A stretch of DNA of 64,000 nt from Ostreococcus lucimarinus (taxonomy: Eukaryota): the NCBI GenBank assembly GCA_000092065.1, contig CP000581.1. One strand, given 5' to 3'. Positions 3,475 to 40,747 of the stretch are shown here, piece after piece (position 1 is the first letter of the stretch; every line of letters starts with the position of its first letter). The position numbers were made by a program, and so were the translations under genes. Under the pieces are notes generated by a model. That model was not told where the DNA came from. It saw only the letters and a list, made by a program, of their open reading frames with translations, and searched no databases.

Positions 3475-4031
3475 CTAATGATGCCCACCTCCCGGCACGC
3501 GCTTGTGCACGAACCACTCGGAACCGATGAGCATCGGCGGCGCGCCTTCCTCGAGGCGTCCCCAGTGAATGATGGAGTCGTCGTCCGGATCGGGCGAGCC
3601 CACGACGCGATACTCCATCGTCGACTCCACCACGCACGGCGATTCTTTCGTCCCCGTCGGCGCGCGCAAAAATGCGTGATGATCGAAGATATCTTCCCCC
3701 TTGAGCCGCCCCTCGAGCTCCGCCTTGTACAAACCCGTGGCGTTTTCCAAGTTGGTCACCACGCCCCCCCCGCTGTACGCCCGCGCGGACGTCCCGAGCG
3801 CGGCCTGCGCGCGTGCACCGCGACCGCGCGTTCACCGTCAGTCTCGCGCTCGCGTCGCGATCACCACCGCGCGTCTTCGCGCGCCGCGTTCGCGCTTTCG
3901 CGCGCGTCGAATCGATCGTTCGATCGAGTCGCGCGCGGCGTTCCCCCGTCGTCGTCGCGCGCGCGCGCGCGTCGTCGTCGTCGCACCTCGACCCGCCGGC
4001 GCGTCACCGCCATGATCGATCGTCGAAGCAT
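3475..4031 (-). CDS. COX5B: cytochrome c oxidase subunit 5b (COX5B / yeast COX4 family), two exons: join(3475..3804, 3987..4031)
   Basis: Exon 2 (95-aa track ORF plus upstream in-frame AALGTSARAYSGGG) aligns with plant COX5b: ELEGRLKGEDIFDHHAFLRAPTGTKESPCVVESTMEYRVVGSP...IHWGRLEEG...WFVHKRVPGGGHH vs Arabidopsis ELEGKKRFDMDAPVGPFGTKEAPAVVKSYYDKRIVGCPGG...VWFWLEKG...YFEL...GPGG..HHH. No ATG lies in frame upstream. A donor GAG|GTGCGA at 3986/3987 and an acceptor cgcgcgcag|G at 3804/3805 join a 15-codon first exon (MLRRSIMAVTRRRVE, ATG at 4029-4031), which looks like a mitochondrial presequence. The branch-like motif gagactgacg lies 33 nt before the AG. The first exon is the weaker part of the model. 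Confidence 0.6.
3805..3986 (-). other. spliceosomal intron of COX5B (182 nt)
   Basis: Donor GTGCGA and acceptor cgcgcgcag on the minus strand, with branch-like GACTGAC 33 nt upstream of the AG. It is phase 0. The spliced reading frame matches COX5b homology. Confidence 0.5.
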
Positions 4032-9539: not shown

Positions 9540-10344
9540 ATGAGCGACGACGAGCACGACGTGGAAACGTTCGAATCCGCCGATGCGGGCGCCTCGCACA
9601 CCGTGCCCATGCAGGCCGGGTCCGTGCGCAAGGGCGGCTTCATGGTGCGCCGACGACGCGCGACCGAGGACGCGACCCGATGCGCGATCGCGCGACGGCG
9701 GGGGGGGCGACGGGCGCGGCGAAGCGCGCGCGCGAGCGACGCGAGGCAGAGCGATGGGAAAGAAATGCGCGCGCGCGATAGGGGGAGGCGCGGGCGAGGC
9801 GCGCGCGCGGTGGGGCGAGGGAGGCGACTTCGCGACTTCGCGACTTGGGGTTTATCGCGGGGTAACCCTGTTTGGACGCGCGCGGGGCGGCGCGAACGCG
9901 AGCGCGATGGACGACGACTGACGATGCGCCGGGCGCGATGTTGAATGATAGGTGATTAAGGGTCGCCCGACCAAGGTGATCGAGGTCACGACGTCGAAGA
10001 CGGGGAAGCACGGGCACGCGAAGTGCCACTTCACCGCGCTCGATATTTTCACCAACAAAAAGGTTGAAGAACTCGTGCCGTCTTCGCACAACCTTGAAGT
10101 GCCGATCGTGAACCGGGTAGAATACACTTTGTTGGATATTGATGAGGATGACCACATGTCTCTCATGGATGATAAGGGAGACACGCGTGAAGACTTGAAG
10201 CTTCCGGGGGGACACGCGGAGGCGGAAAAGTTAGCCGAGGATTTGCGCACCGCGTTCGACGACGGCAAGGAAGTGCAAGTGACGATTTTGTGCTCCATGG
10301 GTATCGAACAAGCTCACGCGATTAAGGAAGTGAACAACTCTTAA
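9540..10344 (+). CDS. EIF5A: eukaryotic translation initiation factor 5A (hypusine protein), two exons: join(9540..9644, 9952..10344)
   Basis: Exon 1 reads MSDDEHDVETFESADAGASHTVPMQAGSVRKGGFM. Exon 2 reads VIKGRPTKVIEVTTSKTGKHGHAKCHF... and carries the hypusine site TGKHGHAK. The donor is ATG|GTGCGC and the acceptor is tgatag|GTG. The intron is phase 0. The joined protein is 165 aa and collinear with eIF5A. Confidence 0.85.
9645..9951 (+). other. spliceosomal intron of eIF5A (307 nt)
   Basis: Donor GTGCGC and acceptor tag. Branch-like acgactgacg lies 30 nt upstream of the AG. This is the longest intron found in the window. Confidence 0.8.
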
Positions 10345-15935: not shown

Positions 15936-16488
15936 ATGGCGAATGCGATGCAAAACATCTGCGCCAACTTCGATCAAGTGGGCAAGGTGCGCATCGCGCG
16001 ACAGCGCGCGCTACTCGACGTCGACGATTATGATTGCACTTTAATCGCCAAGAGAGATTACCGCGCCGTACGCGCTCGACTGACGCCTTCGCGATGGCTC
16101 TCGCGCGCAGGCTTTCGCGGAACACTACTATAACACCTTTGACACCGACCGATCGCAGCTCGGCCCGCTTTACAACGACACGTACTCGATGCTAAACTTT
16201 GAGCACAGCGTCGATCGCCCGGGACAATTCAAGGGCAGCGCCGCGATTGTCGAAAAACTCCGAACGTTACCGTTTCAACAGGTGAAGCACCAAGTGGTGA
16301 CGTTGGACACGCAACCATCGCCGAACGGTGGGGTGGTCGTGATGGTGTGCGGGAACTTGCTCATCGACAGCGAACAACAGCCGCAAAAGTTTTCCCAGTG
16401 CTTTCAACTCATGCCCACCGAAGCCGCCGGGCTCGCCCCCGGCAGCTACTTCATCTTCAACGACGTGTTTAGACTGAATATTGGATGA
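15936..16488 (+). CDS. NTF2: nuclear transport factor 2 (NTF2), two exons: join(15936..15986, 16111..16488)
   Basis: Exon 2 reads AFAEHYYNTFDTDRSQLGPLYNDTYSMLNFEH...IVEKLRTLPFQQVKHQVVTLDTQPS...FIFNDVFRLNIG and matches NTF2 throughout. Exon 1 reads MANAMQNICANFDQVGK, so the join gives VGK|AFAEHYY (compare plant VAKAFVEHYY). The donor is AAG|GTGCGC and the acceptor is cgcgcgcag|G. The intron is phase 0. Translation could instead start at the second Met (MQNI...). Confidence 0.8.
15987..16110 (+). other. spliceosomal intron of NTF2 (124 nt)
   Basis: Donor GTGCGC and acceptor cag. Branch-like gctcgactgacg lies 27 nt upstream of the AG. Confidence 0.75.
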
Positions 16489-20945: not shown

Positions 20946-23180
20946 CTACAAATGTCTACCGGCCACGCGGTGGGGCTCGGGAATGAGCGCCTTGGTGCGC
21001 GATAATCGAGCTACCGTGACGAGCTTGTTGTCGATGGGAATGCTCGGATCGGCGAGCTCCAAGACGTCGATGCGCACCGAACGCCACTCGTCTCGCGAAA
21101 AGAGATGTTGATGACGTTGAATGGCCTGGTACAATGAATTCAAGGCGTAAATTAACATGCCTTGCTGCACCGATCGACGCTCAGCGATCTTTAAGCTGGT
21201 TAAGGCGCGCTCGGCTTCGTGAAGGAGCATGCGCATCTCTTCCCGATGTTTCGAGCGACGACGATGAGCGGAGAGCGAGAGCGACGCCTTCATCGCGAGC
21301 ACCGTGGTGTACATGCCGAGAGCCGCGGGAAAACAAGCCATGAGGGAAAAGTTAAGGCGGTTCGCCCGCATGAGTTGATCCATTTGCATCAACGCACCTT
21401 CCATCTCTACTTTCATGACTTGCGTTTGTAGGAGAAGCAGTTGCATGAGATCTCCTGCGAGCATGTTCGTCAGCGGACTCTTGAGTTCTTCTTCGACACG
21501 AGCCGTCACGAGGCGCGTCGGGTCGGGGGTGACTAAGACCTTTTCTTCGCCCTCACCTTTGCTTCCGCCGCCCACGGACTTGTATGCGCGATAGAGAGAT
21601 TCAGAGTAACCCGGTCTCGACGCTTGTTTCGTGTATTCACCGAGCATGCGATCAAGAGACGCCTTACTTTCTTCCAATCTCTCTATCGCGTCGTCCGGGC
21701 GATCTGAGACAAACGCCGCCTTGAGCTCATCTCGCAACTCTTTCACGGGATCGAGAATGCGCATCTTCAGGAACGTGATGAATGCAGCCTTCGCCGCGTG
21801 TAACGTGTTATCCAGATCATCGCTTCCACACAGGCGACTGTGACGAATCATCACCGTCGTCGAAATCACAAACGTCGCGCTGCCAATCGTGTACAGCAAC
21901 CACCGTCTGACGTGCTTCGACGGCTTCGCGTGAACCTCCAAAGCATCGTGCGATGAGTCGCGAACTTCCGACCACTCTTGCTCGACGCGATTCAACGCCT
22001 GCCAAATCGTATCATTCACCTTTGGCAGAGAAAGTGGCCGACCGTTGACGACGAGAGGCTGTCGGAAGCGATGCGCGACCGCGGCGTCTTCGGGCTGCTT
22101 GCTCAAGTCCATGCTCGCCAACCGCTGCAAGCGGCTCAAAGGACGCGTCGGTCCCGGAGACAGATCGCGATCAAAGTCACCACTCGATCGCGTACTCGAC
22201 CGTGGTGTGGGCTCGGGCAAATCGGGCATCATATCTCGCAACCGCTTACCGTGACTCAATCGATGCAGAGACTTTAACAACTTTGGCGAGTCTCTCGCCG
22301 CGAGCCGCGACGAATTTGACACTTTTGCCAAGTCTCCCACGGTTTCTCTCGACTTCGTCGCGTACTCTTTCACTTGTTCTAAACACTCTAATAAGCCATC
22401 CGTGGCCTCGATGATCGCCTGCCGCGTCATCTCTCTCGACTCACCGCCCATGCTCGCGCTCAACGAACTCTCCCCGCTCGCGTTTGCGACGGTGTCCGCG
22501 TGATGATGCACGCGGCCGACGACGCTGGCCAAGCTCACCTGCAACTCATTCAACGCGTTCACTCGCCCATCGATGATCACTCGCGCGCTCGCGCTCGGAA
22601 GCGCAAACTTTGCGTCCGTCCCGTTCAACGCCGCGCGCGCGTGACACCATAAACGATACGTCCCTTCCCTCGCGAGCGCCACGAAATTACTCGGCCCCGT
22701 GTTGAACAGCAAAAACCGCGCCTGCCCGCTCGGTCGATCTCTCAACACCTCCCAAAAGCTCAGCGAGCTCGTCGCGACGTGTAAATCAAGCAACAACTCC
22801 CGACTCATGTCCTGCGCGAAAAACAACGTCGCTCGCGCGGCGTGTCCGAGGTCGCTCGCCTCGCTCGCCTCCTCCGCTCTGCTTTCGTCGCCGTCGAGCG
22901 CCGCCGACACCGCGAACGCGTCCCTCCACCACACCGCGCTCGCGCCCGTGCGTCCATCCTTATCGAAAAACACCGGCAGCGATTTCACCGCGCGCGCGCT
23001 CCTCGCGCCGCGCTCTCGCGCCCTCGCGCGCGCGTGCGTCGCTCGCTTTCGCAGCTCCTTGGCCACGTCCCAAAACGACCCGTGCTCCCCTCGCGCCCGG
23101 CGCTTCTCCTCGGCGGCGTCCAGGACGTCGCGCGCGACGTCCCTGAACAACCGCCGCACCGGCGGTCCGTCGCTCGCCAT
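20946..23180 (-). CDS. membrane protein of unknown function, possibly NCA2-like (nuclear control of ATPase 2 family) - weak
   Basis: The coding frame has normal composition from MASDGPPVRRLF... onward. It has hydrophobic segments (WLLYTIGSATFVISTTVMI; LMACFPAALGMYTTVLAM) and a conserved-looking C-terminus (QQGMLIYALNSLYQAIQRHQHLFSRDEWRSVRIDVLELADPSIP). The NCA2 assignment is a weak recollection. The ORF 5' end was trimmed from 23816 to the ATG at 23178-23180, because the upstream 212 codons are Arg-rich shadow and overlap the divergent JmjC gene. Confidence 0.3.
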   Translation of the reverse strand: MASDGPPVRRLFRDVARDVLDAAEEKRRARGEHGSFWDVAKELRKRATHARARARERGARSARAVKSLPVFFDKDGRTGASAVWWRDAFAVSAALDGDESRAEEASEASDLGHAARATLFFAQDMSRELLLDLHVATSSLSFWEVLRDRPSGQARFLLFNTGPSNFVALAREGTYRLWCHARAALNGTDAKFALPSASARVIIDGRVNALNELQVSLASVVGRVHHHADTVANASGESSLSASMGGESREMTRQAIIEATDGLLECLEQVKEYATKSRETVGDLAKVSNSSRLAARDSPKLLKSLHRLSHGKRLRDMMPDLPEPTPRSSTRSSGDFDRDLSPGPTRPLSRLQRLASMDLSKQPEDAAVAHRFRQPLVVNGRPLSLPKVNDTIWQALNRVEQEWSEVRDSSHDALEVHAKPSKHVRRWLLYTIGSATFVISTTVMIRHSRLCGSDDLDNTLHAAKAAFITFLKMRILDPVKELRDELKAAFVSDRPDDAIERLEESKASLDRMLGEYTKQASRPGYSESLYRAYKSVGGGSKGEGEEKVLVTPDPTRLVTARVEEELKSPLTNMLAGDLMQLLLLQTQVMKVEMEGALMQMDQLMRANRLNFSLMACFPAALGMYTTVLAMKASLSLSAHRRRSKHREEMRMLLHEAERALTSLKIAERRSVQQGMLIYALNSLYQAIQRHQHLFSRDEWRSVRIDVLELADPSIPIDNKLVTVARLSRTKALIPEPHRVAGRHL

Positions 23181-23285
23181 CGCGCGTCGCGAGGCGACGC
23201 GCGTCGCGCTCTGGCGTCGCCGCTCGCCCGCCGTCGCGTCGACCGGGACGGTCGCGTCCCGCACCGCGCGACGCGCGCGCCCGCG

Positions 23286-25139
23286 ATGCGCGCGGCGTCG
23301 ACGGCGTCGACGGCGTCGACGTCGGCGCCCTCGACGTCGGCGCCGACGCTCGGCGCGCGCGCGGCCGGCGCGCGCGCGCGCGTCGCCGTCGCGCTCGGTC
23401 GACCGCTGCGACCGAACGCGCGACGCGCGACGCTGAAGCCGCCGCCGATCGACCTCGAGGGAGGGGCGCCGACGGCGTGCGCGGAGATTGATTACGAACG
23501 CGACGTCGTCGCGGCGAACGTCGGCGCGCGCGCGCTCGGGGAAGCGCTCGCGCGGTTGCGCGAACCGCTGGTGGTCAGGGGCGGCGCGAAGGCGTGGCGC
23601 GCGAGCGGTCGGTGGACGCTGGAGACGCTCGTGCGAGAATACGGCGATTGGCGGTGCGACGTGCGCGTGATAGCGTCGCCGGAGACGAACGATGGACGGG
23701 AGTTCGTGTACTGCGAGGAGTCGCACGAGGCGGTGCGAGAGGGAAAGTTCGCGGCGCCGAGCGCGACGGCGACGATGGATTTCGCGACGGCGGCGGCTAA
23801 AGTTTTGAGATTTCACGGCGATGGGGCGTACGTGCAGTCAAAAATATCGGAGAAAATGACGCTGGAATGCGTCGGGGGAGTGAGCGATGCGTTCGGCGCG
23901 CTCGGTGAGGAGTCGCAGGAGCGCAGGCTGTGGCTCGCGCTCGCCGGGTCGGTGTCGCCGATGCATTTCGACGCGTCGACGAGCACGTTGGTCCAAGTCG
24001 GCGAAGGAACGAAGCGCATGCTTTTGTATCAACCATTCGCGCTTTCTGCGATTGACTTGTATCCAAATTGGCATCCTCTTCGTCGACGAGGAAGACGCTT
24101 CGCGCCGAAAGCCCTTGTTAGAGAGGCTATCATCGCGCCAGGAGACGCGCTCATTTTCCCTCCGCGCTGGGCGCACTACACTGAAAGTTGTGGCGATCGA
24201 GTGTCCGCATCGGTTACGCAGCGATTCAAGCACAGTCGCGGCATGAAGTACAGCGATGATATCGCAGGAAAATTTCAACGCTGGGCGAATAATCGCGACA
24301 GACCCAATGCGCTTGCGCGTCTCGTCTCCAGCGGGCTCGTGGAGTCTGACGTCGGCACAGTTTTGCCACGCAACGCACGCACGGGTGAAGTGATGCCGAT
24401 CGATTCGAGTGGTTGGGAAAGGTCGACAAATGTTGAGTGGCGCACTGCGGCGATCGAGTGCGCGACGATGATCAAAGAACACATCGCAGAGGGAGATTTA
24501 ATTGGGATTTATAGTCGTGGTTCCGTGGCAAATGGAACTGCGCGCAAAAATATTTCTGACGTTGACTTGATCGTCATCACTCGTCAACGCGGATTGGACG
24601 AAGACTTCGTGCGCGACGATTTACAGCAACGGTGGCTACCTCGTCACGCACACATGGTGAAGAAATGTGATGTTCGTTTTGAGTACGTCGCGTCGGAAGC
24701 AGAAATCGCAACGAGTGCTTCGGTGGATACTTTTGTCATCGCGACGCAAAGCGTAACCATTTTCGGATCACCCCTTCCAACTTCCCTGCCATCGAGCGCG
24801 CGAATTCCGAAGCCTCGAATTTTGGAAAGCGTGCAGGACGACGTCGACGCCGCGATTCGGCATGGTTCAGAACGCTCGCTCACGTGGGCGTTGAAACGTC
24901 TCATCAGGGCGTCCTACGAGAAGTATGCTTTGCCCGTTGATGGTGTTGAGTACACGAGAGATTTGTATCATTGCGTCAGATTAGCACTGCTGCACGCGAA
25001 TATTGATGTTACGAGCGAATTGACGACGGCCCTCGTGCTCTGCGTGCACTCGCCTCGTAAGGTGTGTGGCGATGTCTTGTGGAGAGCGCTGACCGAAGCC
25101 CTTTGTCGTCGTTTAGTAGCTGCGCTGAGTTGTATTTGA
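23286..25139 (+). CDS. JmjC-domain (cupin, Fe/2-oxoglutarate hydroxylase-type) protein fused to a C-terminal minimal nucleotidyltransferase (AadA/ANT-like) module
   Basis: The JmjC core has the Fe ligands HxD...H: LWLALAGSVSPMHFDASTSTLVQVGEGTKRMLLYQPF...GDALIFPPRWAHYTES. After a linker comes an NTase signature, DLIGIYSRGSVANGTARKNISDVDLIVIT (hG[GS]x9-13Dh[DE]h), then a helical tail: WALKRLIRASYEKYALPVDGVEYTRDLYHCVRLALLH. The ORF 5' end was trimmed from 22842 to the ATG at 23286. Confidence 0.6.
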   Translation: MRAASTASTASTSAPSTSAPTLGARAAGARARVAVALGRPLRPNARRATLKPPPIDLEGGAPTACAEIDYERDVVAANVGARALGEALARLREPLVVRGGAKAWRASGRWTLETLVREYGDWRCDVRVIASPETNDGREFVYCEESHEAVREGKFAAPSATATMDFATAAAKVLRFHGDGAYVQSKISEKMTLECVGGVSDAFGALGEESQERRLWLALAGSVSPMHFDASTSTLVQVGEGTKRMLLYQPFALSAIDLYPNWHPLRRRGRRFAPKALVREAIIAPGDALIFPPRWAHYTESCGDRVSASVTQRFKHSRGMKYSDDIAGKFQRWANNRDRPNALARLVSSGLVESDVGTVLPRNARTGEVMPIDSSGWERSTNVEWRTAAIECATMIKEHIAEGDLIGIYSRGSVANGTARKNISDVDLIVITRQRGLDEDFVRDDLQQRWLPRHAHMVKKCDVRFEYVASEAEIATSASVDTFVIATQSVTIFGSPLPTSLPSSARIPKPRILESVQDDVDAAIRHGSERSLTWALKRLIRASYEKYALPVDGVEYTRDLYHCVRLALLHANIDVTSELTTALVLCVHSPRKVCGDVLWRALTEALCRRLVAALSCI

Positions 25140-25196
25140 ATTATATTGTTTTTGTTTTTGTTGCAAAGCGTACGTGCTGTAGGTTTCTAGGTTAAC

Positions 25197-28100
25197 CTAC
25201 ATTTGCGCGAGGATAGCGCTCAAGGCCTCCGCATCGAGGCCCTTGAGTTCGCTCACGAATTGGGCGACTTGCGCGGCGCGTCCCTTGACCATGACATCCG
25301 CCATCACCTTATCAGAGCTGTTTTCAAGCAACGCAGCGACCGCACGGTCGTCGTTGGCGTTGACCCCCGAAGCAGCGATGGCATCTTCGACGAGAGCTTC
25401 GATTGACTTGTCGAGCTCAACGTCGCCAAGCTGCTCCTTGATCCTACTTGCTAACGCGTCCACGGCAAGTCTGCGCGTGAGCCTACCGTGGAAATAGCGG
25501 CGAGCGTTTTGCCACTCGACGACATCTCGAATGACTCCCTTGGCCTTCATGCGACCACTGCGATCGTGGAGATCGGCGAACTCGTGCGCGACTTGCGTGT
25601 ACATCGGCAAGAGGTTCGCTTCCCGCTTCTTGATCTCATCCTTGTTCTTCTCCGGATCCTCAGCCAAGTTGGCAAGGATCGGGTCCAACCGGTGCATCGC
25701 GGCGATCTGATCCTTGGAGCGGAACTTGACTTCGCAGATACCTGGCGGTTCGAGGATACCACCTCGAGATTCCTTATCCGCGTACATCTCCATTCTCGCT
25801 TCGTTGATGGTCGGGTCGACGACGACCCAAGCACCACCCCGAAGCTCACCGTTCGGCGGAATGTAGACGAACACCGGATGGCGGTACACTCGAAGTTCAT
25901 CGACAATCATCGCACCGAACTTCAAGATCTCTCCGTACATGTCCCGGGTACCGCCGCTGAAACCACGCCAGTTGGCAAAGATGAAGAGAGGCAAGTTTTC
26001 GGCGTTGTTGAAATCTCTGATAGCAGTCGCAGTCTTGTGAGCGCTGTCAGGGAACCACACTTGACCAGCTTGAGCCAAAACCGCTTCACGCGATTCCGGG
26101 TTGGCGGGGTCGGCGGGGATGCGTTGCTCCATCAAGCGAGTTTCGACGGCAATGACACCGCACGGAATACCACCAAGACGCGCTCGACCGGTGACAACGG
26201 ACTTACCCCAATCGGGCAACGTCTCAGTCCACGAGTTCACATCGAAGAAACCCTTAGCAAAAGCACCATTCGACTGCACACCCGCAAGCATGTTGCGAGG
26301 ATCGTACGGCGTCTTCGTCGGCATGAATTCAATGTCGCGATCGACCGGATCAGACGTGCGAAGCGCAGGCGCTTGCGACTTGGACGTGGCCGGAGTGTAC
26401 GACAACCACTTCAAGATGGACCGAACGCCCTCTTGGTCGTCAGACACTTGCAAGTGAGACACACCATTCGGCATCATGACTTGCGGGCCGCCGAGCTGAT
26501 CTTGGCTCGTGTAAACTTCACGGCCGAGCAGCTTGTTCAACGCCAAGTAACCGGTGAGGATGAGCGGACCATTCGTCATTTGAATGTTACGCTGGCCCAA
26601 GCGGCACAGGTAGGCACCGATACCGACAGATCGACCGGTGACGTAAGACAACGTGAAAGCGTCGGCGTACGCGGCGGATTGCTCGCCGGCAATCATACCG
26701 GAGCCTCGCAAGTTTTCGACACCGATGCCATGGATTTGACCGATGATGTCGGTAAGCTTCATGCGCGTTTCGCCACCCTCTACGATCTCTTCCGCCGCGA
26801 CGGTACCTTCCGGGAACACCTTATAATCGTCCGGAGTGAGGTAGAGGTACTTGAAACCCATGCCTGGATTGGAATCGTCAATCCACGCGATCTTGAAGTA
26901 CGGCTTGAGTTCCTCGACGAGACCGATGCGCGCGCCAGAGTTAGACGCGATGTACACTCGCGGCAAGCCCAAGTTGCGCGCATACTTGGAAACGGCGTCG
27001 TAGACATCGTCTTCCTTGACACCGAAAGAACCAGACATGTAGGTGCAATCATTACCGACGATGACGATTTCTCGGCCTTGGGGGTACTCGGGCGTTTTCA
27101 TAAAGCAATGCCAGCCAACCATGCCGACGTTGTTCGATCCCGCCGGGCGTTGTTCCTTCGTGAGCACTCCATCTTCGCCCAGGACGAGTTCGGAAGCACT
27201 GAAGAATTCACTTGGCATCGTACCACCGACATCGGCGACGTGAGCACGCCAGTCAAGAACCAAGGCCTTTTCGAAAAGACCGAGGAAGTCGAAAATGTAA
27301 GTCGTGCCGATCGCACGAGCCACGGCGCGCTTTTGTTGCAGAGCACCCGGTTGCGGATACGGCTCAAGGAAGCACGCTTGTTCTTCACCGTTCGGGCCGA
27401 GCATGCAGAACTGTTCGGCCTTGCCAGTCGTCGGCTCCAAATACTCCTTGTACATATCAACCTTCAACCACTGACCAGACATGGAGGTGGCCATGAGACG
27501 AAGCGGCACCTTCTCCTTGCCGACGCGGACGCGGATCTCAATTTCATCCACTCGTCGCGCGAGCAAAGACGCAGACTCGCGGCTGATGAAGTCGGCGAGC
27601 TTATTCTTCAGAGAAGAGATAGCAACGGAGAAGTTTTGTTCTTCGAGATGCGGCAAGAAGTTGACGTAAATTCTGGACGACGAAGCACCCTTGGCTCGGC
27701 TGTCCATCAGAGACAGAGACAACGCCTCGACGGCCTTGTCAAGAACACGCTCCAATCCGCCTTCCATGACATCCTTGGAATGAGAGAGACGGCGCAACAA
27801 CAAGTGCTTTGCTGGACCGCGCCGAGCACCGACCGAAGACTCACCGACGTACATGTGAAGATCACGGTTCACAGTCGGGAGACGAGTCAAGCCATAGTTC
27901 TCGAGACGAGCGAGTTCGAGAAGGTGAGCGACAGTGGGTCGTTCACCGCGGTACAGTAAGTCTTCCTTGAAATCCTTGGAAGAGTGGAACGTGTAGTACG
28001 ACGGAAGCTCGAGGTTCGCATACGCGAGAACGTTCACGAACTTAATGCCCATCGATTCAAGACGCGGCTTTTGCGTCGCGATGAAGGCCTCGAGATCACC

Positions 28101-31100
28101 CGGCAACGAATCGTCGGCGCTTTGTTGGCAAATTGCCACGTGAAGAACGTGCATTTGGTCGTTCGAAGCGCCGGCCGCCTTGATGGTGGCATCAAGTCGG
28201 TCCAAGATTGCGGTGAAACGCGACTTGGCTTCCGCAACATTGTCCACGCGCGCCAAAAGACCGCATCGGAGCGGGCTCTCATCCGGGAAAGTATTGAACT
28301 TGAACTGCCAGCTGATGGAAGTCATGCCATCATCGCGCGACACCGCGGTGCTGAGCACGTTGTGCGCACGGAAAACACGCTTGGCGTACACTTCAAGGGC
28401 AGCATTCTGCACCTTTTCATCCTTGTCCGCGAAGAGCGCAGGCAACAAATCAACGGCGAGAGTCGGCGACTCAACCAAAGACTGAAGACCACCCGCGCTT
28501 GCCTTGCCCCAGGTGCGCGACAACGGTTGCGAGCCGATGAGAATCTTCTTCAATTCTTCCAAGCGCTTGTCAATAGACGGCAAGCGACGCTCGATGAGAA
28601 TGTTGGACGCGACGACAGCGATATCGCCGTATTCGTTGCCGCGAAGCTTAGAGAGAGCTTCGATGTTTCCACGTAGAGAGTCGGAGATCGGGGCGTGATC
28701 GTCCGCCCATGAAATCGGACCTCGAGAAAGAACTCGCTGCGGCAAAGTCGGCGCTTGCTTCAATAGCGACAAGATGAGATCTTGACGCTGCTTGGATCGC
28801 ATATGCGCACGAACCTGATTCAACACCGGGGTCAAGTTGCTACTGTTCGAGCGAATCAATTGTTGCATGACAGCATCCATCGGCTTGCCTTCAAACACGC
28901 TTTCGACGCTGAGGTAACGTTGAATGATTTGCTCGAGCACAGTCGTCGCTCGTTCCCATCGGCCTTGATCTGCCGGAAGAGCAGTGAGGCAGTTGAACAA
29001 GTCAGAAACACATTCATCCGCATCGAGCTCATAACCGTCTAAGAGTAAGTTTACTCGCGCCACAGCAGCTTCGAGAGCTTCCTCCGGACCCGCCGGAGTA
29101 GACTCATCGGCGGGGATGCGAAGCGCACCAGAGAAAGTGCTGATCTTCTTTACCTTGCTCGGATCCTTCAACTCAAGCGACGCAAGCAAGTCACCGGCTT
29201 CGATAACGGCGCCAGCAGACTTGGCGTGAGACACATTGCCGCTTTCAGTGGCGATGAGGGGCATAACCATCTTCATCGCTTCGACTTCGGCGAACGGCTT
29301 CCCAGCCACGACTTCAGCACCGTCGTCTTGGAGGAAGCGAATGAGCTTACCAGTGACGTCGGTGCGAAGCTCAGATGGGTCGAAAACGTTCGGCAGTAGC
29401 CAAGTTTGACCGTCAAGAATCATTCTCAAGCCAAGCGGTTCCTCGAGACCCTCGACCTCGTGTTGTTCACCACCGAAAGTACCGACGAGGGCGCCATCCG
29501 GACGCTCGCGAAGCTTGGCTTCGATCTTCTGGCCTTCCGGAGTGACAATGCAGAAAGTATCCGGGCCCGGTCGAGTCACTTCGAAAGAGTACTTCGTGTC
29601 CTGGTACGTGATTTCGACCGGAAAGCGAATCATCTTGTCGACACCTTGCACAGACACCTGGCCCTTTTGCCAGAACTCCGTAAAGGCGCTCTCTTCAGCC
29701 TTCGCCATGTTGAAAGCACGGAACAAAGCAGCACCGACCACAATCATGTGCGGGTCTTGCTTGTTGGCGATTTCCTTCTTCGCGATCAACCCGTCCAACC
29801 AAGAGGTGTCGATGGTATTATCCTTGAACTCACCCGTTTCGAGAAGCTGAACCAAGTACTCGACGGCGGTGCGGATTTCACCGCGCACGACCATGCCCTT
29901 GAGAGCGAGCACGAGCGCCTTGCGCGCTTCGTTACGGGTTTTGCCAGATGCAAAGATGTGACCGAACTGGGAATCCGCAAACTCGTGTACGCCCCCATTG
30001 GTGCCGACAGAGAAGTAACCCCACACGTTGGGCGTAGACTGGAACTGCACGCGCTCGATGCCACCAGACGTCGGCTTGAAACCTTCATCCGGGTTCTCGG
30101 CGGTGATGCGCGCTGCGATGACGTGAGTTTGCGGCAAGATGTAATCTTCTTCCATGAAGTCAATACTGTCCGTCGTTTCCGTGTCACGCCCGTAAAAGGT
30201 TCGAATTTCCGGGATGCGCTCGAGCGGAATACCCATGGCAACTTGCAACTGCGTCGCGGGAAGGTTGACACCAGTGATGCCTTCCGTCACCGGGTGCTCG
30301 ACTTGCAAACGCGGGTTGAGTTCAAGGAAGAAGTACTTGTCTGTCGCTGCGTTGTACAAGTACTCAACCGTACCAGCACCAATGTAACCAATATTCTTTG
30401 TCAAACGCTGCGCTGCCTTTTCCATTTCTCTGAAAATTTCCGGCTTGGCAATCGTCGGAGGACCTTCCTCAAAGATCTTCTGGAATCGACGCTGCGTGGA
30501 GCAATCACGACCGTTCAAGGCAATGGCATTACCGTACTCGTCACCGACAATTTGCACTTCCAAGTGACGCGCCTGCGTACAAAGCTGCATCATGAACATC
30601 GGCGAGCCCGGGACTTCAGCCTTGACTTGCTCAAAGTTTGTTCGAAGCTGCTCTTCATCCGCGCTCATACGAATACCCTTACCACCACCACCTTCAGACG
30701 CTTTCAACATGACCGGGAAACCGATGCGTTTCGCCGCCGCGACGCACTCCTCGACCGTCGTGACCATCGCCTTGTTGAAAATTTCTTCCGGAATCGTGCC
30801 CTCCTCCGTCAACTCTGCGACGAGACCGTCGCCAGACCACGGAATAGACGGAACCTTGGCGGTTTGCGCCAAAATATTGGCCGCAATCTTATCGCCTAGC
30901 ACGCTCATCACCGGCGCAGTCGGGCCGATGAATTGCACGCCGATCGCCTTGAGCGAAGTCGGGAGCTTTGGATTCTCGGAAGCGTGACCCCATCCCGGCC
31001 AAACCGCGTCGACGCCTTCGCGCTTGGCGATTTCTGTGATCAAAGGCACGTTGGCGTAGTTGTTCTTGTTCGAACCACCCGGAACTTCGACGTAGTCATC

Positions 31101-31729
31101 CGCGAAACGGATAAACTCGGCGTTCGCCGCGATGTCCTCCGGGGTCGCCATGGCCAAGAATTGAATTGCGTTTTCATCCCCGAACGTGTTAAACGCCCAA
31201 CGCCGCATCGAGAGAATGCTCTTCGTCGCCGCCATACCGTTGTTCGCGATCAACACCTTACGAATCACCCGTTTCCCTCCTCTTTCAGCCACATACTTGG
31301 CCAACGCATCCGCGCTCGACGCTGAAGCCGTGCTCGCCGCCGAATCCGCGACGGCGTCGCGCGCCTGCGCGTCGCCGCGCTTCGTCGCGCGCGCCACGCC
31401 GACGCGTCGCGCCGAGTCCGCCCTGCGCACGCACGCGCGCGCCGACGTCCCCTTCTTCACGTCACCCAAAACTACGCGCGCTCGCACGAGTTCGCGTCCT
31501 CGTCAGTCTTCCGCTCTCCGCGTTCGCGCGCCGACCTAGGTTTCATCCACTCCACCTTATCGAATAACGGGATGCCGTTGGTTTCGATCGCGCGCGATCG
31601 CTCGTCGCCTCGCGCGCGCGCTTCGCCTCGCCGCGCGCATCGTTCGCCGCGCGAACAAAAAAACGTACACTTCGTCTTCGTCGATACCGCACGCGCGGCA
31701 CCGCACGCGCGCTGCGTCGCGGGCGCCAT
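25197..31729 (-). CDS. ACC: homomeric multidomain acetyl-CoA carboxylase (biotin carboxylase - BCCP - carboxyltransferase), main exon 25197..31480 plus putative small 5' exon 31693..31729
   Basis: The 2096-aa ORF has all ACCase domains in order: KVLIANNGMAATKSILSMRRWAF... (BC), EAMKMVMPL (biotinyl Lys) and CT blocks. The main exon is certain. The track ORF begins with GTG. There is no in-frame ATG before the BC domain, and an in-frame stop lies 5 codons upstream. The branch-like motif aagactgacg sits 22-31 nt before two candidate AG acceptors at the ORF 5' end. The candidate exon 1 is ATGGCGCCCGCGACGCAGCGCGCGTGCGGTGCCGCGC (MAPATQRACGAA), with donor GTGCGG at 31692/31693 and phase 1. The exon 1 placement is tentative. 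Confidence 0.9.
31481..31692 (-). other. putative 5' intron of ACC (approximately 212 nt)
   Basis: It is inferred from the missing ATG, the upstream in-frame stop, the GACTGAC branch-like motif at about 31502-31508, AG acceptors at 31481/31482 or 31472/31473, and a GTGCGG donor candidate. Alternative donors would be GTGCCG (exon 1 of 28 nt) or others. Confidence 0.35.
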
Positions 31730-31766
31730 CTGTGTTTCGCACGCGCGCGACGTGAGTCACGGGGTT

Positions 31767-31808
31767 CGCTTTTCGCGCGTCGCTTTTCGCGCGTCGCTTT
31801 TCGCGCGC
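31767..31808. repeat. 3 tandem copies of a 14-nt unit (cgcttttcgcgcgt) in the ACC / SRPBCC-gene divergent promoter region
   Basis: The sequence cgcttttcgcgcgtcgcttttcgcgcgtcgcttttcgcgcgc is seen directly. Confidence 0.5.
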
Positions 31809-32351
31809 GCGCGATCGCCCGTCGTCGTCGCCTCGCGCGCGCGCCGCGCAGAATATTCCCGCGTCGACGCGCGCGGTCCGCGCCTCGCGACCGTCGTCGC
31901 GCGCGCGTCCGGCGCGCTCGACGCCGCGCGCCGGAGAGGTCACGCGCGTCGCGCGTCGCGCGTCTGCGTCCGACGTCGCGACGCCGCCGCGCCGTCGTCG
32001 CGCGCGCGGTCGATCGCGGTCTTTCGCGCGCGTTCGCGCTCGCGCGATCGCGCGCGTTCGCTCAGCGCACCGTCGCCGTCGCGCGCGTCGCGTTCGAGTG
32101 TGCGGATCCGCGGTCGGCCTTTCGCGCGCGCGGCGCGGCATAAATCGCGCGACGCGCGCGGGCGTCGTATACGAGTGCGTCGGAGCGCCATGACGGGCGA
32201 CGTTATCCGTCCGCGCTGCCGGGGCATCGCGGACGAGGTCCGTGTTTTAGTTTTCAATTCGTGTCCGTGTGTATGCTAGTTTCGCGGTGAAACGTCCCGT
32301 CGCGCGCGCGACGCGCGTCGCCAGAGCGGCGCGTCGGCGCGCGCGTCGACG

Positions 32352-34643
32352 ATGCGGGCGTCGGCGCGGACGCCCGCGACGCCGGCGTCGACGTCGCGCG
32401 CGCGCGGACGCGCGTCGAGCGCCGCGGTGCGGTGCGCGCGGATGGGCGCTGGGCGCGACGACGCGGGAGGCGGACGCGTCGCGCGCGACGTCGCGTCGCG
32501 CGCGCGCGCGACGCGGACGCGCGAGCGAGGGTCGACGCGTCGACGCGGGCGATGGACGCGCGCGCGCGCGTCGTGGGGAAGCGACGCGCGGGCGGGGTAC
32601 GAAATTTCGACGAGTTGGGACGATTACGACGACGAGGCGGACGACGACGAGAGAGGCTCGAACGAGGCGGCGGACGACGAGGAGACGGAGGAAGAGGAGA
32701 GCGCGGCGGCGATCGTCGCGGTGGACGTCGTCGCGTCGCCGGAGTCGGTGTGGGCGTGTTTGGCGAGAGGGGAGAATTTGTCGGAGTTCGCGCCGACGCT
32801 GCTCGTGGCCAAGCGCGGGCCGAAGCAATACGGATCGACGGAGACGGAGGTGCGATTGCTCGCGATGGATTACACGCTGTTCACGCCGAGAATGCTGAAT
32901 ACGGTGAGCGTTCGGATCGTGGATAAGTCGAAGGGGCCACCGAACTGGGAAAACGGGCCGGCGAAGCTTGGATTTTTGGCGAGAAACGTCGACGAGCGAA
33001 GCGATTTCATGCTCGTGGGATCGTTTTGTATTCGGCCTATTTTTGGCGAATCGTACAAGTGCAGATTGGAGTACAGGGCTGAGTTGAGGCCGACAAATTA
33101 CGAAGTTCCAGCTGATGTCCTGCGCAGGGCGGTGGAGGAGAGCTTCCCGTTCGTCATCGCGAGCGTGACGAAGCAGGCGGTGAAGAGAGACCAACGACGA
33201 CTGCGGTCGCCGGGATTCCTGCCTCAGCTCGAGACCCCTTTCGGGGCATCCAGGGAACTGGCAAAGAAAGCGGACGATTCTTTAGTACCGAGTGGATATC
33301 TCGGATTGAGTGAGGTCAACGTCCCGACGCAAAACTCGGAATCGAGTCAAGACGAGGAGACGCCGGATGCCTCCAAACCCGCCGCGGTGCGGATGCGTCC
33401 GCGCGGCGAGACAGCCAAAGCCTCAGAGGCACCGAAGAGCTGGAGAGCTATCGGTGGTGGTGCGCAAGGAGAGAAGTGGTTTTCAAGCGACATTACCCCG
33501 TTTGAAAATCCAGGCTCGCTCGAGGTGCACATGCGACGGTACGATACGGACAGTTTGTTGCACAGACGCGCGCTGGCCGCGGTTCGCATCGAGGCGCCGC
33601 CGGCGTTGGTGTGGGATTTGTTGACGAATTACGAAAACATGCCAAAGTTCATGCCGCATCTCATGCACACTGAGTACATTCAAAGATATAATGCAGTCGA
33701 GCGTGAGGCGTCCGAAAAGATCAAACGATTGCGTCTCAGGCAAGTCTTCGTAAAGTGCGACCTCTTTCACGCCATCGAAGAGTCGACGGCGCTGGACGTC
33801 GTGCAGAAGGACGACCGCACCGAGTTACAGTTTCGCGTGTTACAGAACCCGAAATTCGGCGCGCTTCAAGGTAAATGGCTCGTCGTTCCGACCGAAGACT
33901 CCGCAGCCACGGTGTTGAAATTCGCCATCGAGGGCGTTGTGAGCAATGCTGGAATAGATGGGACGGCGAAAAAGGTGGACCCGCTCAACGAGCGCATCGT
34001 GTTTGAAGAGATTTCAACCATGCTCAAACAAGCGAGAGATTTCATGGAAGGAATTGCGAGTAAAGAGGTGCAGTCATACGGGAACGTCAACATCAAAGTC
34101 GCCGATCTTGTGCTGAAAGGCGCTGGAATGTCCGTCGACGAGGAAGACGCCGTCGACGAGCAAATCGTCGGCGCGCTCAACTCTGAAGCCACTGAAAACC
34201 AAGAGAAACAGATACAAGCGTTGAAGCGCGAACTTATCACTCTCGGCTTCGGCGAGAACAAGTGCATGCCGACGCGAGAACAGTTACGCGGCGGGCGTCA
34301 CTGGGACGCCATCCAGCAAATCGAAAGCCTCGGCGGTTTCGTAAAGGTGGCGCAACTTCTAGATTGGTCGGGCGCGAAGACGCGACCACGTGGGTATTGG
34401 ACACTGCGAACGTTGGAGTTGGAGATCAAAGACTTCATCGCCAACACAGAGGATCCGAATGTTCAACGGAACCCCCGAAGGATGCCGTCTCAGAAATCGT
34501 TGCGCGACGCCGGGCGAGCGGATATCGTCAATGCGCTCAAGCGTTTCGGCGGCGCCGAGAAAGTGGCGGCCAGCATGGGTCTCGAATTCGGTAGCGGCAA
34601 CAAACGTTCGTCCGCGAGCGCGCGCGGCGGCGGCGACGATTAG
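32352..34643 (+). CDS. protein with two SRPBCC (polyketide cyclase/dehydrase, Bet v1-like lipid-binding) domains and a conserved C-terminal domain of unknown function
   Basis: After an Arg/Ala-rich transit-like N-terminus and an acidic tract there are two SRPBCC-like units. The first starts AAIVAVDVVASPESVWACLARGENLSEFAPTLL...; the second starts AAVRIEAPPALVWDLLTNYENMPKFMPHLMHTEYIQ... A C-terminal block follows: RPRGYWTLRTLELEIKDFIANTEDPNVQRNPRRMPSQKSLRDAGRADIVNALKRFGGAEKVAASMGL. The start at 32352 is an ATG, but the N-terminal extent is uncertain. Confidence 0.55.
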   Translation: MRASARTPATPASTSRARGRASSAAVRCARMGAGRDDAGGGRVARDVASRARATRTRERGSTRRRGRWTRARASWGSDARAGYEISTSWDDYDDEADDDERGSNEAADDEETEEEESAAAIVAVDVVASPESVWACLARGENLSEFAPTLLVAKRGPKQYGSTETEVRLLAMDYTLFTPRMLNTVSVRIVDKSKGPPNWENGPAKLGFLARNVDERSDFMLVGSFCIRPIFGESYKCRLEYRAELRPTNYEVPADVLRRAVEESFPFVIASVTKQAVKRDQRRLRSPGFLPQLETPFGASRELAKKADDSLVPSGYLGLSEVNVPTQNSESSQDEETPDASKPAAVRMRPRGETAKASEAPKSWRAIGGGAQGEKWFSSDITPFENPGSLEVHMRRYDTDSLLHRRALAAVRIEAPPALVWDLLTNYENMPKFMPHLMHTEYIQRYNAVEREASEKIKRLRLRQVFVKCDLFHAIEESTALDVVQKDDRTELQFRVLQNPKFGALQGKWLVVPTEDSAATVLKFAIEGVVSNAGIDGTAKKVDPLNERIVFEEISTMLKQARDFMEGIASKEVQSYGNVNIKVADLVLKGAGMSVDEEDAVDEQIVGALNSEATENQEKQIQALKRELITLGFGENKCMPTREQLRGGRHWDAIQQIESLGGFVKVAQLLDWSGAKTRPRGYWTLRTLELEIKDFIANTEDPNVQRNPRRMPSQKSLRDAGRADIVNALKRFGGAEKVAASMGLEFGSGNKRSSASARGGGDD

Positions 34644-39313: not shown

Positions 39314-40747
39314 TCACGCGCGCGCGAGCTTCGAGGCGACGGTGAGATGGAGATCGCGTAAACGCTCGGACCAGTTGGCGAAGCCGCGAGCGCGAGCGAT
39401 GGCGTCGATGGCGCGCGGATCCTCGCGCGCGATGTGGACGACTTGCGCGCGTTGGTCGATTTTGGCGTCGACGCGGCGGTCGAGGATGAGGGAAACCATG
39501 AGGGACTCGACGTCGGGCTCGGGAATGTTGAGCTCGGTGGAGATGTAAGGGATCGTGATTCTGGTGTACGGCTCGATGAGTCTCAAGAGGACTTGGGTGC
39601 GGATGTTCTTCAGGAGATCCTCGACGTAATCGCGAATGAAGTCGTCGCCCATGACTTGCTCGCGATGCGTCTTGAGGAGTTGCTCGAATGCCGCGATATC
39701 GTTTCGTTGATACGCGCCAACGAGCGATCGCATGACGGTGACTTCTTTATCCTCGCGAAACGGTTTCACCTCTTGCGCGTCGAACGGGTCGACTTCGCTC
39801 TCCATGAGCATGTTCGCCAGGACCAGATATTTCAAGCACTGCACGCGTCGATCGCTACCGGCTTCGTCGTAGGATTTGAACGCTTCGAAGAAATCCGTCG
39901 CCGCGTTTTCCCAGTCGCGCTCTACCATGTACATCTTCCCACCGCACTCTCGAATAATGCCTAAGATTCGCGGATGCGGAATCGCCGACGTCACTTCTAA
40001 CGCCTTTTCGTACAAATCCTTGAGCTTCTTCGTGTTCTTTTGCGCCGTGTACATTTGTATCTCGATCGAGTACACCTCCAAAAGCTGCGTCCCTTTGCGC
40101 TGATCCACCGTGCCATCCTCATTTTGGCAACTCTTGTGCAGTTCCTTCAAAATCACCTGCATGCGCGCGAAATCTTTCGCGTCGAAGACCAGTTTACACA
40201 GCTTGAGATTCGTCTTGAACCACAGACGCTCGTTCTTCGTCTCTTCTAATTTTCTAAGCGTCGTCTCGTAAAACTCTTGCAAAAATCCCATATCCTCGTT
40301 CGACGCAATCGTATCTAATATCGAATTCAACACCTTTTCGCTGTAATTCCTCGTCACCGCGTCGTTGACGTACGTCAACAGCTCCTTGTACCGCTCCAGC
40401 ATCGCCCCCGCGTCGTTCATTTTATACAGCAGCTTGACCATTTGTTTCAACGCCTTGAACCCCCACTCGCCTTTCTCGTGCTCCATCGCGATCACTTCCT
40501 CGAAACCTTTCATCGCCGCTTCGTTCGCACCGCTCTCGAGCGAGCCTACGGACGTCATCTCGCGTCAGTCGGGTCGTTTCGTCGCGCCGTTGACGCGTTC
40601 GCATTCGCAAGGGGACGCGCGTTCGTCCGTCGAGTCGTCGCGCGGCGCACCTTTGGCGTTGTAGTAAGCGTTCTCGATGTCGACCTCATCTTCGTTGAAC
40701 TCGTCCTCGTCCGAGTACGTGAATCCGTAGTCGTCGTCGTCCGACAT
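39314..40747 (-). CDS. CSN2: COP9 signalosome subunit 2 (CSN2), two exons: join(39314..40545, 40651..40747)
   Basis: Exon 1 (the 60-aa track ORF, MSDDDDYGFTYSDEDEFNEDEVDIENAYYNAK) matches the CSN2 N-terminus. Exon 2 matches CSN2 over about 410 aa (EHEKGEWGFKALKQMVK..., LWFKTNLKLCKL..., GTQLLEVYSIEIQMYTAQKN..., IRTQVLLRLIEPYTRI...). The donor is AAAG|GTGCGC and the acceptor is ccgtag|GC. The intron is phase 1; splicing gives NAK-G-SLESGANEAAMKGF, collinear with human NSKALKEDDPKAALSSF. Confidence 0.85.
40546..40650 (-). other. spliceosomal intron of CSN2 (105 nt)
   Basis: Donor GTGCGC and acceptor tag. Branch-like ccgactgacg lies 19 nt upstream of the acceptor. Confidence 0.8.

What the first reader, a model, noticed from the sequence alone, without database searches (positions are those of the whole stretch)
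31472..31729. Acetyl-CoA carboxylase main ORF has no ATG: probable short 5' exon plus intron
The 6.3-kb ACC ORF starts with GTG (the track translates it as M). The first in-frame ATG codon is already inside the biotin-carboxylase core (NNGMAATKS), and an in-frame TGA sits 5 codons upstream. Immediately upstream is the branch-like motif aagactgacg, with AG acceptors 22 and 31 nt downstream of the branch A, the same spacing as in all confirmed introns here. An ATG at 31727-31729 followed by GTGCGG/GTGCCG donor candidates could supply MAPATQRACGAA. Because intron phase constrains the join, the N-terminus (targeting information) of this enzyme depends on this call.
Basis: partly seen in the sequence, partly recalled or inferred. 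Interest (0 to 1): 0.5.

Follow-up and report, generated by a model that had tools for sequence, protein, structure and literature searches.

The report
ACC gene's short first exon, confirmed
The big acetyl-CoA carboxylase gene of the picoalga Ostreococcus lucimarinus really does begin with a 61-base first exon and an ordinary 197-base intron, so the public protein model lacks its first 99 residues, including the probable chloroplast-targeting leader.

Summary
The 6.3-kb ACC ORF (minus strand, 25197..31487) has no ATG before the biotin-carboxylase core, and an in-frame TGA lies 5 codons upstream of its GTG.

Four independent public transcript assemblies run from window 31851 to 31669 and then continue directly at 31471. 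One of them ends in a poly(A) tail. So a 197-nt GT-AG intron (31668..31472) is spliced out.
- The acceptor is the AG 31 nt after the branch A of GACTGACG.
- The donor is GTACGT at 31668, not the proposed GTGCGG or GTGCCG.
- Exon 1 encodes MAPATQRACGAARAVSTKTK plus the first base of a split Phe codon. The protein is 2111 aa.

The same phase-1 intron, always splitting the Phe of an F-L-G-D/E motif, is present in five other Mamiellales lineages.

The window is Ostreococcus lucimarinus CCE9901. Its reference protein XP_001415874.1 (2012 aa) starts at the internal Met and lacks 99 residues.

The intron is a textbook Ostreococcus intron. This is a gene-model correction, not new biology. Plastid targeting of the restored N-terminus is inferred, not tested.

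The parts
31730..31851 (-). 5' UTR (minimum extent). It contains a perfect 14-nt x3 tandem repeat at 31766..31807.
   Evidence: Transcript contigs L014 and L015 start at window 31851 and 31849. There is no ATG on this strand between 32141 and 31729. Tandem repeat.
31727..31729 (-). True start codon ATG (context acacagATGgcg). An in-frame TGA lies 9 codons upstream.
   Evidence: The ORFs of L014-L017 start here. It is identical in strain L002.
31669..31729 (-). Exon 1 coding part, 61 nt: MAPATQRACGAARAVSTKTK plus T, the first base of the split Phe codon (phase 1).
   Evidence: Exact block mapping of four transcript contigs. There are 0 differences from strain L002 over these 61 nt, against 12 in the 197-nt intron. 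Exon-1 lengths in relatives are 61, 64, 64, 97 and 70 nt, all 1 mod 3.
31663..31668 (-). 5' splice site GTACGT (the donor actually used).
   Evidence: The transcript contigs end their first block at 31669. The homologous donors in relatives are T|GTGCGT or T|GTACGT. The published O. lucimarinus consensus is GTGCGTG (PMC2483917).
31472..31668 (-). Spliceosomal intron, 197 nt, GT-AG, phase 1.
   Evidence: Absent from L014-L017. It carries indels that are not multiples of three relative to strain L002.
31501..31508 (-). Branch-point motif GACTGACG (branch A = 31503). It contains the in-frame TGA 31505-31503.
   Evidence: GACTGAC is invariant in all Ostreococcus-like relatives (alignment A1). It matches the published extended consensus GACTGACG.
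31472..31474 (-). 3' splice site TAG; the AG is 31473-31472, 31 nt after the branch A. The same TAG is the stop codon of the 85-codon ORF read if the intron is retained.
   Evidence: Transcript blocks resume at 31471. YAG|TTTTRGGYGAYG is conserved in all Ostreococcus-like relatives, with a spacer of variable length.
31485..31487 (-). GTG taken as the ORF start by mechanical ORF calling. It is intronic and not a start codon.
31687..31701 (-). They lie inside exon 1 and are not used in the transcripts seen.
   Evidence: One search shows both are phase-compatible. One search shows the proteins built from them are not in the collection. GTGCGG has no counterpart in L001, and neither site has one in L003.
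25197..31471 (-). Exon 2: the last two bases of the Phe codon, then 2090 codons of homomeric ACCase, then the stop TAG at 25199-25197.
   Evidence: Pfam finds Biotin_carb_N, CPSase_L_D2, Biotin_carb_C, ACCA_BT, Biotin_lipoyl, ACC_central and Carboxyl_trans. The transcripts are colinear with the window.
31233..31235 (-). Internal ATG (NNGMAATKS) used as the start by the reference model XP_001415874.1 / ABO94166.1 (2012 aa).
   Evidence: An exact look-up of the translation of window:25200-31235:- returns those accessions.
25135..25196 (-). 3' UTR. The poly(A) addition site is at about 25135-25138.
   Evidence: L016 ends in a poly(A) run after window 25135. L014 reads on to 25075.

Best explanation
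The window comes from Ostreococcus lucimarinus CCE9901. The gene is its homomeric multidomain acetyl-CoA carboxylase, on the minus strand.

Shown:
- The mRNA starts at or upstream of 31851.
- The first AUG (31729) opens a 61-nt coding exon 1.
- A standard U2-type GT-AG intron of 197 nt (31668..31472) is removed. It has donor GTACGT, branch GACTGACG with its A at 31503, and acceptor TAG 31 nt downstream.
- Exon 1 is joined in phase 1 to the 6.3-kb exon 2.
- The mature message encodes a 2111-aa protein beginning MAPATQRACGAARAVSTKTK-F-LGDVKKGTSARACVRR.
- The GTG 'start' and the in-frame TGA of the long ORF are intron sequence.
- The reference model that starts at the internal Met is truncated by 99 residues.

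Inferred: the roughly 89 residues ahead of the biotin-carboxylase domain are rich in Ala, Arg, Ser and Thr and poor in acidic residues. They most likely form a chloroplast transit peptide, which would make this the plastid homomeric ACCase known for prasinophytes.
For: (1) Exact look-up. The 2111-aa protein built with donor 31668 and acceptor 31472 exists in Logan assemblies on 4 contigs. The proteins built with the two alternative donors do not.

(2) Contigs L014-L017 come from four different sequencing runs and are 6.4-6.6 kb long. Each maps base for base to window 318xx..31669 and then 31471..251xx, without the 197 nt. L016 carries a poly(A) tail.

(3) Comparative evidence from genomic contigs of five other Mamiellales lineages (L001, L003, L006, L007, L011). 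In L001, L003, L006 and L011 an ATG-initiated exon 1 has a length of 1 mod 3. L007 has a 96-nt exon 1, probably a 1-nt error in a 2.3x-coverage assembly. All five share a T|GT[AG]CGT donor, a CTGAC branch (GACTGAC in the Ostreococcus-like lineages), a YAG acceptor and an exon 2 that starts TY-YTN-GGC-GA. This gives an invariant junction F-L-G-D/E.

(4) Against a strain about 97% identical (L002), exon 1 has 0 differences in 61 nt. The intron has 12 in 197, including indels that would shift the frame. Exon 2 has 13 substitutions and no indel in 572 nt.

(5) The splice signals fit the published O. lucimarinus consensus, GTGCGTG and GACTGACG (PMC2483917). They also fit three homology-supported introns in this window, in the eIF5A, NTF2 and CSN2 genes.

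(6) The Pfam architecture is that of a homomeric ACCase. Biotin_carb_N begins 10 residues before the reference model's Met.

(7) Plastid inference. Prasinophyceae have a nucleus-encoded homomeric plastid ACCase that groups with the plastid enzymes of red-lineage algae (PMC4489017). The nearest non-green homologues carry signal-peptide-plus-Phe leaders typical of plastid targeting. The first 40 residues hold 9 K+R, 2 D+E and 16 A+S+T.
Against: Nothing contradicts the gene structure.

Limits:
- The four runs are known only by accession, so their nature as RNA-seq is inferred from the intron-less contigs and one poly(A) tail.
- Minor use of the other donors, or intron retention, cannot be excluded from assemblies.
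- Two scans of JGI metagenome contigs for spliced junctions found nothing. That says little, because those records are mostly genomic.
- Plastid localisation was not tested. No targeting predictor or localisation data were available.
- Mamiellales also have a cytosolic homomeric ACCase.
Confidence: 0.96

Rival explanations
1. The intron exists but uses one of the reader's donors. GTGCGG at 31692 would give MAPATQRACGAA-L-LGD. GTGCCG at 31701 would give MAPATQRAC-V-LGD.
For: Both sites are phase-1 compatible with the acceptor. GTGCGG resembles the GTGCGC donors of three other introns in the window.
Against: The full-length proteins built from these junctions are absent from the collection, while the GTACGT version is present on four contigs. 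All four transcripts keep 31692-31669 as exon. GTGCGG has no counterpart in L001, and neither site has one in L003. The split Phe codon T|TY is invariant in all lineages.
Confidence: 0.02
2. There is no upstream exon, and translation starts at the internal ATG 31235, as in the reference annotation XP_001415874.1.
For: It is the first in-frame ATG of the long ORF, and it is the deposited model.
Against: The start would fall 10 residues inside the Biotin_carb_N domain and delete the conserved KVLIANNG strand. The 78 codons of exon 2 upstream of it are conserved as protein, without indels, across species. The mRNA carries an upstream AUG that is the first AUG for more than 400 nt and is in frame after splicing.
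Confidence: 0.01
3. Non-AUG initiation at GTG 31487, or at another near-cognate codon at the head of the long ORF.
For: Mechanical ORF callers and prokaryote-style gene calls on metagenome contigs start there (P0001, P0003, P0121).
Against: This GTG lies in the intron and is absent from the mRNA. [quoted passage not shown]
Confidence: 0.005
4. A frameshift error in the assembly separates a continuous ORF running from ATG 31729 into ACC.
For: The 85-codon ORF from 31729 overlaps the head of the ACC ORF in another frame.
Against: The same arrangement is seen in independent genomic assemblies of this species and of five other lineages, whose intervening sequences are highly divergent. The transcripts lack exactly 197 nt bounded by GT and AG.
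Confidence: 0.005

Closest known systems
Canonical 'non-chromosome-2' spliceosomal introns of Ostreococcus lucimarinus (Irimia and Roy 2008, PMC2483917)
   Same: It has GT-AG boundaries and the extended branch motif GACTGACG, which 66.5% of EST-confirmed non-chromosome-2 introns carry. Its donor is of the GTGCGTG family. Its branch-to-AG distance (31 nt) is similar to that of three other introns in this window (19, 27 and 30 nt). Its length (197 nt) is in the usual range.
   Different: The donor is GTACGTT, with A at +3 and T at +7 instead of G. The intron is not in the reference gene model.
Reference protein XP_001415874.1 / ABO94166.1 / UniProt A4RRC3, 'predicted protein' of O. lucimarinus CCE9901
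   Same: Residues 100-2111 of the transcript-supported protein are identical to it.
   Different: The reference lacks the first 99 residues. These are exon 1, the whole presequence and the first about 10 residues of the biotin-carboxylase N-domain.
Plastid-targeted homomeric ACCase of Prasinophyceae and of algae with red-derived plastids (Huerlimann et al. 2015, PMC4489017)
   Same: It has the same multidomain order, BC-BCCP-central-CT. It has an N-terminal extension ahead of the BC domain. Its best non-green homologues are plastid-type enzymes with targeting leaders.
   Different: The leader here has no signal peptide and looks like a simple transit peptide of a primary plastid. Localisation and clade membership were not tested here.

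Membership tests
U2-type spliceosomal intron (Ostreococcus non-chromosome-2 class) | Removed from the mature mRNA at exact GT...AG boundaries | tested here: met
   Four transcript contigs join 31669 directly to 31471.
U2-type spliceosomal intron (Ostreococcus non-chromosome-2 class) | 5' splice site of the GTGCGTG consensus | tested here: met
   The donor is GTACGTT, matching 5 of 7 positions with R at +3. Orthologous introns have GTGCGTG (L001), GTGCGTA and GTACGTA. The consensus is from PMC2483917.
U2-type spliceosomal intron (Ostreococcus non-chromosome-2 class) | Branch motif (G)ACTGAC(G) a short distance upstream of the AG | tested here: met
   GACTGACG lies at 31508-31501, with its A 31 nt before the acceptor G. 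The motif is invariant in Ostreococcus relatives.
U2-type spliceosomal intron (Ostreococcus non-chromosome-2 class) | Splicing restores one long ORF from an AUG | tested here: met
   The phase-1 join gives 2111 codons with no internal stop.
Homomeric (multidomain) acetyl-CoA carboxylase | BC, BCCP, central and carboxyltransferase domains in one polypeptide, in that order | tested here: met
   Pfam hits: Biotin_carb_N, CPSase_L_D2, Biotin_carb_C, ACCA_BT, Biotin_lipoyl, ACC_central and Carboxyl_trans, all far above their cut-offs.
Plastid-targeted ACCase (chloroplast transit peptide) | N-terminal extension ahead of the catalytic core with transit-peptide composition | tested here: met
   There are 89 residues before Biotin_carb_N. 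The first 40 residues hold 9 K+R, 2 D+E and 16 A+S+T. This is descriptive only.
Plastid-targeted ACCase (chloroplast transit peptide) | Positive call by a targeting predictor, or experimental localisation | not testable with these tools
   No TargetP- or PredAlgo-type tool and no localisation data were available.
Plastid-targeted ACCase (chloroplast transit peptide) | Phylogenetic placement in the plastid ACCase clade rather than the cytosolic prasinophyte clade | tested here: inconclusive
   The best non-green hits are cryptophyte, dinoflagellate and stramenopile-type proteins with bipartite leaders, at 60-70% identity. Fungal and plant ACCs score 53-59%. No tree was built, and the cytosolic paralogue was not compared.
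Non-AUG (GTG) initiated gene | The start codon is present in the mRNA, with no usable upstream AUG | tested here: not met
   The GTG is intronic, and an upstream AUG is in frame after splicing.

The most novel reading that the evidence does not exclude
The intron may mark an old modular seam in the targeting leader. In every Mamiellales lineage examined it sits in phase 1 inside the Phe codon of an invariant F-L-G-D/E motif. Exon 1 upstream of it is free to vary: 20-32 residues, conserved only within subgroups. The red-lineage plastid ACCase homologues have, at a comparable distance from the catalytic core, a signal peptide followed directly by Phe (PAA|FLGPQR, AKA|FFGPL, AHA|FTGPL). Exon 1 could then be a leader module exchanged by exon shuffling when this ACCase moved between green and red-plastid lineages. 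That would bear on the proposed horizontal transfer of plastid ACCase (PMC4489017). The evidence here is a positional resemblance only.
Probability: 0.06. Interest if true: 0.45.

Novelty: new member of a known kind. Interest (0 to 1): 0.2.

Why it matters
ACCase catalyses the committed step of fatty-acid synthesis. Prasinophytes are one of the few primary-plastid groups that use a homomeric enzyme in the plastid. Any targeting prediction, phylogeny, heterologous expression or herbicide or lipid-engineering work that starts from XP_001415874.1 uses a protein without its leader and without the first strand of the biotin-carboxylase domain. The corrected 2111-aa model removes that error. The conserved junction also gives a simple recipe for repairing the orthologous models in other Ostreococcus, Micromonas-like and related genomes and metagenome bins. 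Beyond that, the finding is ordinary: a textbook intron in a compact genome.

Tried and rejected
- Word-indexed protein searches with the ORF head and with the predicted spliced N-terminus returned only prokaryote-style gene calls on genomic contigs. No transcript-derived N-termini came back.
- Two scans of JGI metagenome contigs for spliced-junction sequences found nothing. One used this species' junction and one the junction shared by L001 and L003.
- A scan of bacterial and archaeal genome contigs for mis-binned relatives gave only a 67%-identical non-Mamiellales locus.
It succeeded by going through the listing of cluster members and then using the returned id.
- A regular-expression intron census (GTRCGT...CTGAC...YAG) produced false positives. 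One example is GTACGT at 55368, inside the SAC3/GANP coding sequence. It also missed the GTGCGC donors. I replaced it with homology-checked introns in the eIF5A, NTF2 and CSN2 genes.
- A candidate intron ending at 3805 (minus strand) could not be given a phase-consistent donor and was dropped.
- The ACTGACG count in the window is not above chance.
- An Rfam scan of 31300-32400 gave only a sub-threshold MIR531 match (27 bits against a gathering score of 70), taken as chance.
- A k-mer search for conserved elements inside the orthologous introns found only CG-rich low-complexity words and the branch motif.
- Literature searches found no paper that discusses this accession or the ACCase leader of Ostreococcus.

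Full report
**1. What is in the sequence**

The acetyl-CoA carboxylase ORF lies on the minus strand, 25197..31487.
- Read on that strand, the ORF lister's start is GTG 31487-31485.
- An in-frame TGA sits at 31505-31503, five codons upstream.
- The first in-frame ATG is 31235-31233, inside NNGMAATKS.
- The TGA is part of aaGACTGACG (31508-31501).
- AG dinucleotides follow the branch-type A (31503) at 22 nt (31482-81) and 31 nt (31473-72).
- ATG 31729-31727 opens an 85-codon ORF in a different frame. That ORF stops at TAG 31474-31472.

Every statement in the finding about the sequence is therefore correct. The heptamer ACTGACG is not over-represented in the window: 9 found against 10.9 expected. 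The motif count alone proves nothing.

**2. Comparative evidence**

A protein search with the ORF head returned only prokaryote-style gene calls on metagenome contigs. Their contigs could be fetched.
- L002 is a strain about 97% identical.
- L001 (88%) and L003-L005 (92%) are other Ostreococcus-like lineages.
- L006 and L007 are GC-rich Micromonas-like contigs.
- L011 is a further Mamiellales lineage.
- L008-L010 are low-GC and look like Bathycoccus (my guess from composition).

In the alignment of the Ostreococcus-like set, GACTGAC and YAG|TTTTRGGYGAYG are invariant. The spacer between them changes in length and sequence, and everything upstream diverges. That is the signature of an intron 3' end. 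It puts the acceptor at AG 31473-72 with exon 2 starting at T31471, which makes the intron phase 1.

I enumerated every ATG-opened, phase-compatible GT upstream of the acceptor.
- Only one kind of donor recurs in every lineage: T|GT[AG]CGT.
- The ATG-initiated exons it closes are 61, 61, 64, 64, 97 and 70 nt long, all 1 mod 3.
- L007 is one base short. This is probably an error in a 2.3x-coverage assembly.
- The spliced N-termini all read ...F-L-G-D/E, with the Phe codon split T|TY.
- The window and L001 also share G-A-A-x-A-V-S within exon 1.
- L006 and the low-GC contig L008 both open an ORF with MQALSAA-x-SW upstream of the main ORF. I could not define an acceptor in L008.

Against strain L002, exon 1 has no difference in 61 nt. 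The intron has 12 in 197 nt, including 1- and 2-nt indels. The next 572 nt of exon 2 have 13 substitutions and no indel. The upstream intergenic region has 115 differences in 622 nt.

**3. Transcript evidence**

I built the three possible full-length proteins, using donors at 31668, 31692 and 31701, and looked them up by exact sequence.
- The 2111-aa protein from donor 31668 is in the collection, from Logan assemblies, on four contigs.
- The other two are not in the collection.

The four contigs (L014-L017) come from runs ERR3586955, SRR28369051, SRR11178179 and SRR28369158 and are 6.4-6.6 kb long. They map base for base to the window as 31851, 31849 or 31730..31669, followed directly by 31471 onward.
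- The 197 nt 31668..31472 are missing.
- L016 ends in a poly(A) run just after window 25135.
- The contigs differ from the window at three or four single bases (31212, 29559, 29505, 27456). All are synonymous, because the protein is identical.

This is direct evidence for the junction and for a 5' UTR of at least 122 nt. ATG 31729 is the first ATG on this strand for 412 nt.

**4. Identity and annotation status**

The same look-up shows that the translation from the internal ATG (2012 aa) is exactly ABO94166.1 / XP_001415874.1 / UniProt A4RRC3, 'predicted protein [Ostreococcus lucimarinus CCE9901]', on a 1.15-Mb record. So the window is O. lucimarinus CCE9901, and the deposited model lacks 99 N-terminal residues.

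Pfam gives the full homomeric ACCase architecture. Biotin_carb_N begins at residue 90 of the corrected protein, ten residues before the reference model's Met. The reference therefore also clips the conserved KVLIANNG strand.

**5. How ordinary the intron is**

Irimia and Roy (PMC2483917) describe EST-confirmed O. lucimarinus introns outside chromosome 2. They have the atypical strong donor GTGCGTG. 87% contain ACTGAC and 66.5% contain GACTGACG.

Three introns in this window, which I verified by protein homology across the junction, fit that description:

| Gene | Coordinates | Length | Donor | Branch motif | Branch A to acceptor G |
|---|---|---|---|---|---|
| eIF5A | 9645..9951 (+) | 307 nt | GTGCGC | GACTGACG | 30 nt |
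| NTF2 | 15987..16110 (+) | 124 nt | GTGCGC | GACTGACG | 27 nt |
| CSN2 | 40650..40546 (-) | 105 nt | GTGCGC | GACTGACG | 19 nt |

The ACC intron (GTACGTT, GACTGACG, 31 nt, 197 nt long) is a normal member of this class.

**6. Mechanism and function**

Shown: transcription from at or upstream of 31851, removal of the intron, and a 2111-codon ORF from the first AUG.

Inferred: the 89 residues ahead of the BC domain are a chloroplast transit peptide. They begin MAPATQRACGAARAVSTKTKFLGDVKKGTSARACVRRADSARR. The first 40 residues hold 9 basic, 2 acidic and 16 Ala/Ser/Thr residues. Support for the inference:
- The nearest non-green homologues found here are of that type and carry signal-peptide-plus-Phe leaders.

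No predictor, tree or localisation experiment was available, so this step remains an inference.

If the intron were retained, translation from AUG 31729 would end after 85 codons at the TAG that also forms the acceptor.

**7. Rivals**

- The internal-Met model and the GTG start are excluded by the mRNA structure and by domain integrity.
- An assembly frameshift is excluded by independent genomic assemblies and by the clean GT-AG excision.

**8. Verdict**

The biology is ordinary. The practical result is a correction of a reference gene model for a key lipid-synthesis enzyme, and a transferable rule for its orthologues: exon 1 ends in T|GTRCGT and exon 2 begins TY-YTN-GGN-GA.

The only mildly unusual point is the deep conservation of the intron position inside the Phe codon of an FLGD motif within an otherwise fast-evolving leader. 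I record a speculative reading of that under the novel case.

Noticed in passing
window 31233-31235 (reference start) versus 31727-31729 (true start): The RefSeq/GenBank model XP_001415874.1 / ABO94166.1 (UniProt A4RRC3) of O. lucimarinus CCE9901 starts at the internal Met. It lacks 99 residues that the transcripts encode.
   Followed up: yes
window 9645-9951 (+), 15987-16110 (+), 40546-40650 (-): Three further introns are supported by protein homology across the junction, in the eIF5A, NTF2 and CSN2 genes. All have donor GTGCGC, branch GACTGACG and a branch-to-AG distance of 30, 27 and 19 nt.
   Followed up: partly
window 31766-31807: A perfect tandem repeat, 14 nt x 3 (CGCGCGAAAAGCGA on the minus strand), lies inside the ACC 5' UTR as defined by transcript contigs L014 and L015. 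This stretch differs by indels in strain L002.
   Followed up: no
window 25075-25196: The ACC 3' UTR is short, with poly(A) added at about 25135, 62 nt after the stop. One transcript contig reads on to 25075, so it overlaps the 3' end of the convergent plus-strand ORF 22842..25139. The syntenic neighbour in L002 has JmjC/Cupin_8 domains.
   Followed up: no
window 31459-31471, and L001, L003, L006, L007, L011 at the exon 2 start: An F-L-G-D/E motif directly after the exon junction is invariant across Mamiellales, although the rest of the leader diverges. Red-lineage plastid ACCase homologues show a signal peptide followed by Phe (for example PAA|FLGPQR in P0087). This is a resemblance only.
   Followed up: partly
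window 31212, 29559, 29505, 27456: The transcript contigs differ from the window by single synonymous bases at these positions. The 31212 difference is in three of the four contigs. This suggests strain or culture polymorphism relative to the reference assembly.
   Followed up: no
window about 31545-31575; L001 about 5915-5945: The window and L001 introns share CGTTAT...CGATAAGGTGGA, a GATAAG-type word with a small inverted repeat. It is not shared by the more distant introns. It may be residual similarity or a small regulatory element.
   Followed up: no
window 55368 (+): A consensus-looking GTACGT followed by CTGAC...YAG lies inside the continuous SAC3/GANP coding sequence (the GTCxxMCP motif). 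It is not an intron, which warns against motif-only intron calling here.
   Followed up: yes
window 31860-32350: The roughly 500 bp between the 5' end of the ACC transcripts and the divergent ORF 32352..34643 (+) is 75-84% G+C and made of degenerate CGCG-rich 8-28-nt repeats. The coding sequence is about 55% G+C. This is probably a shared bidirectional promoter region.
   Followed up: no
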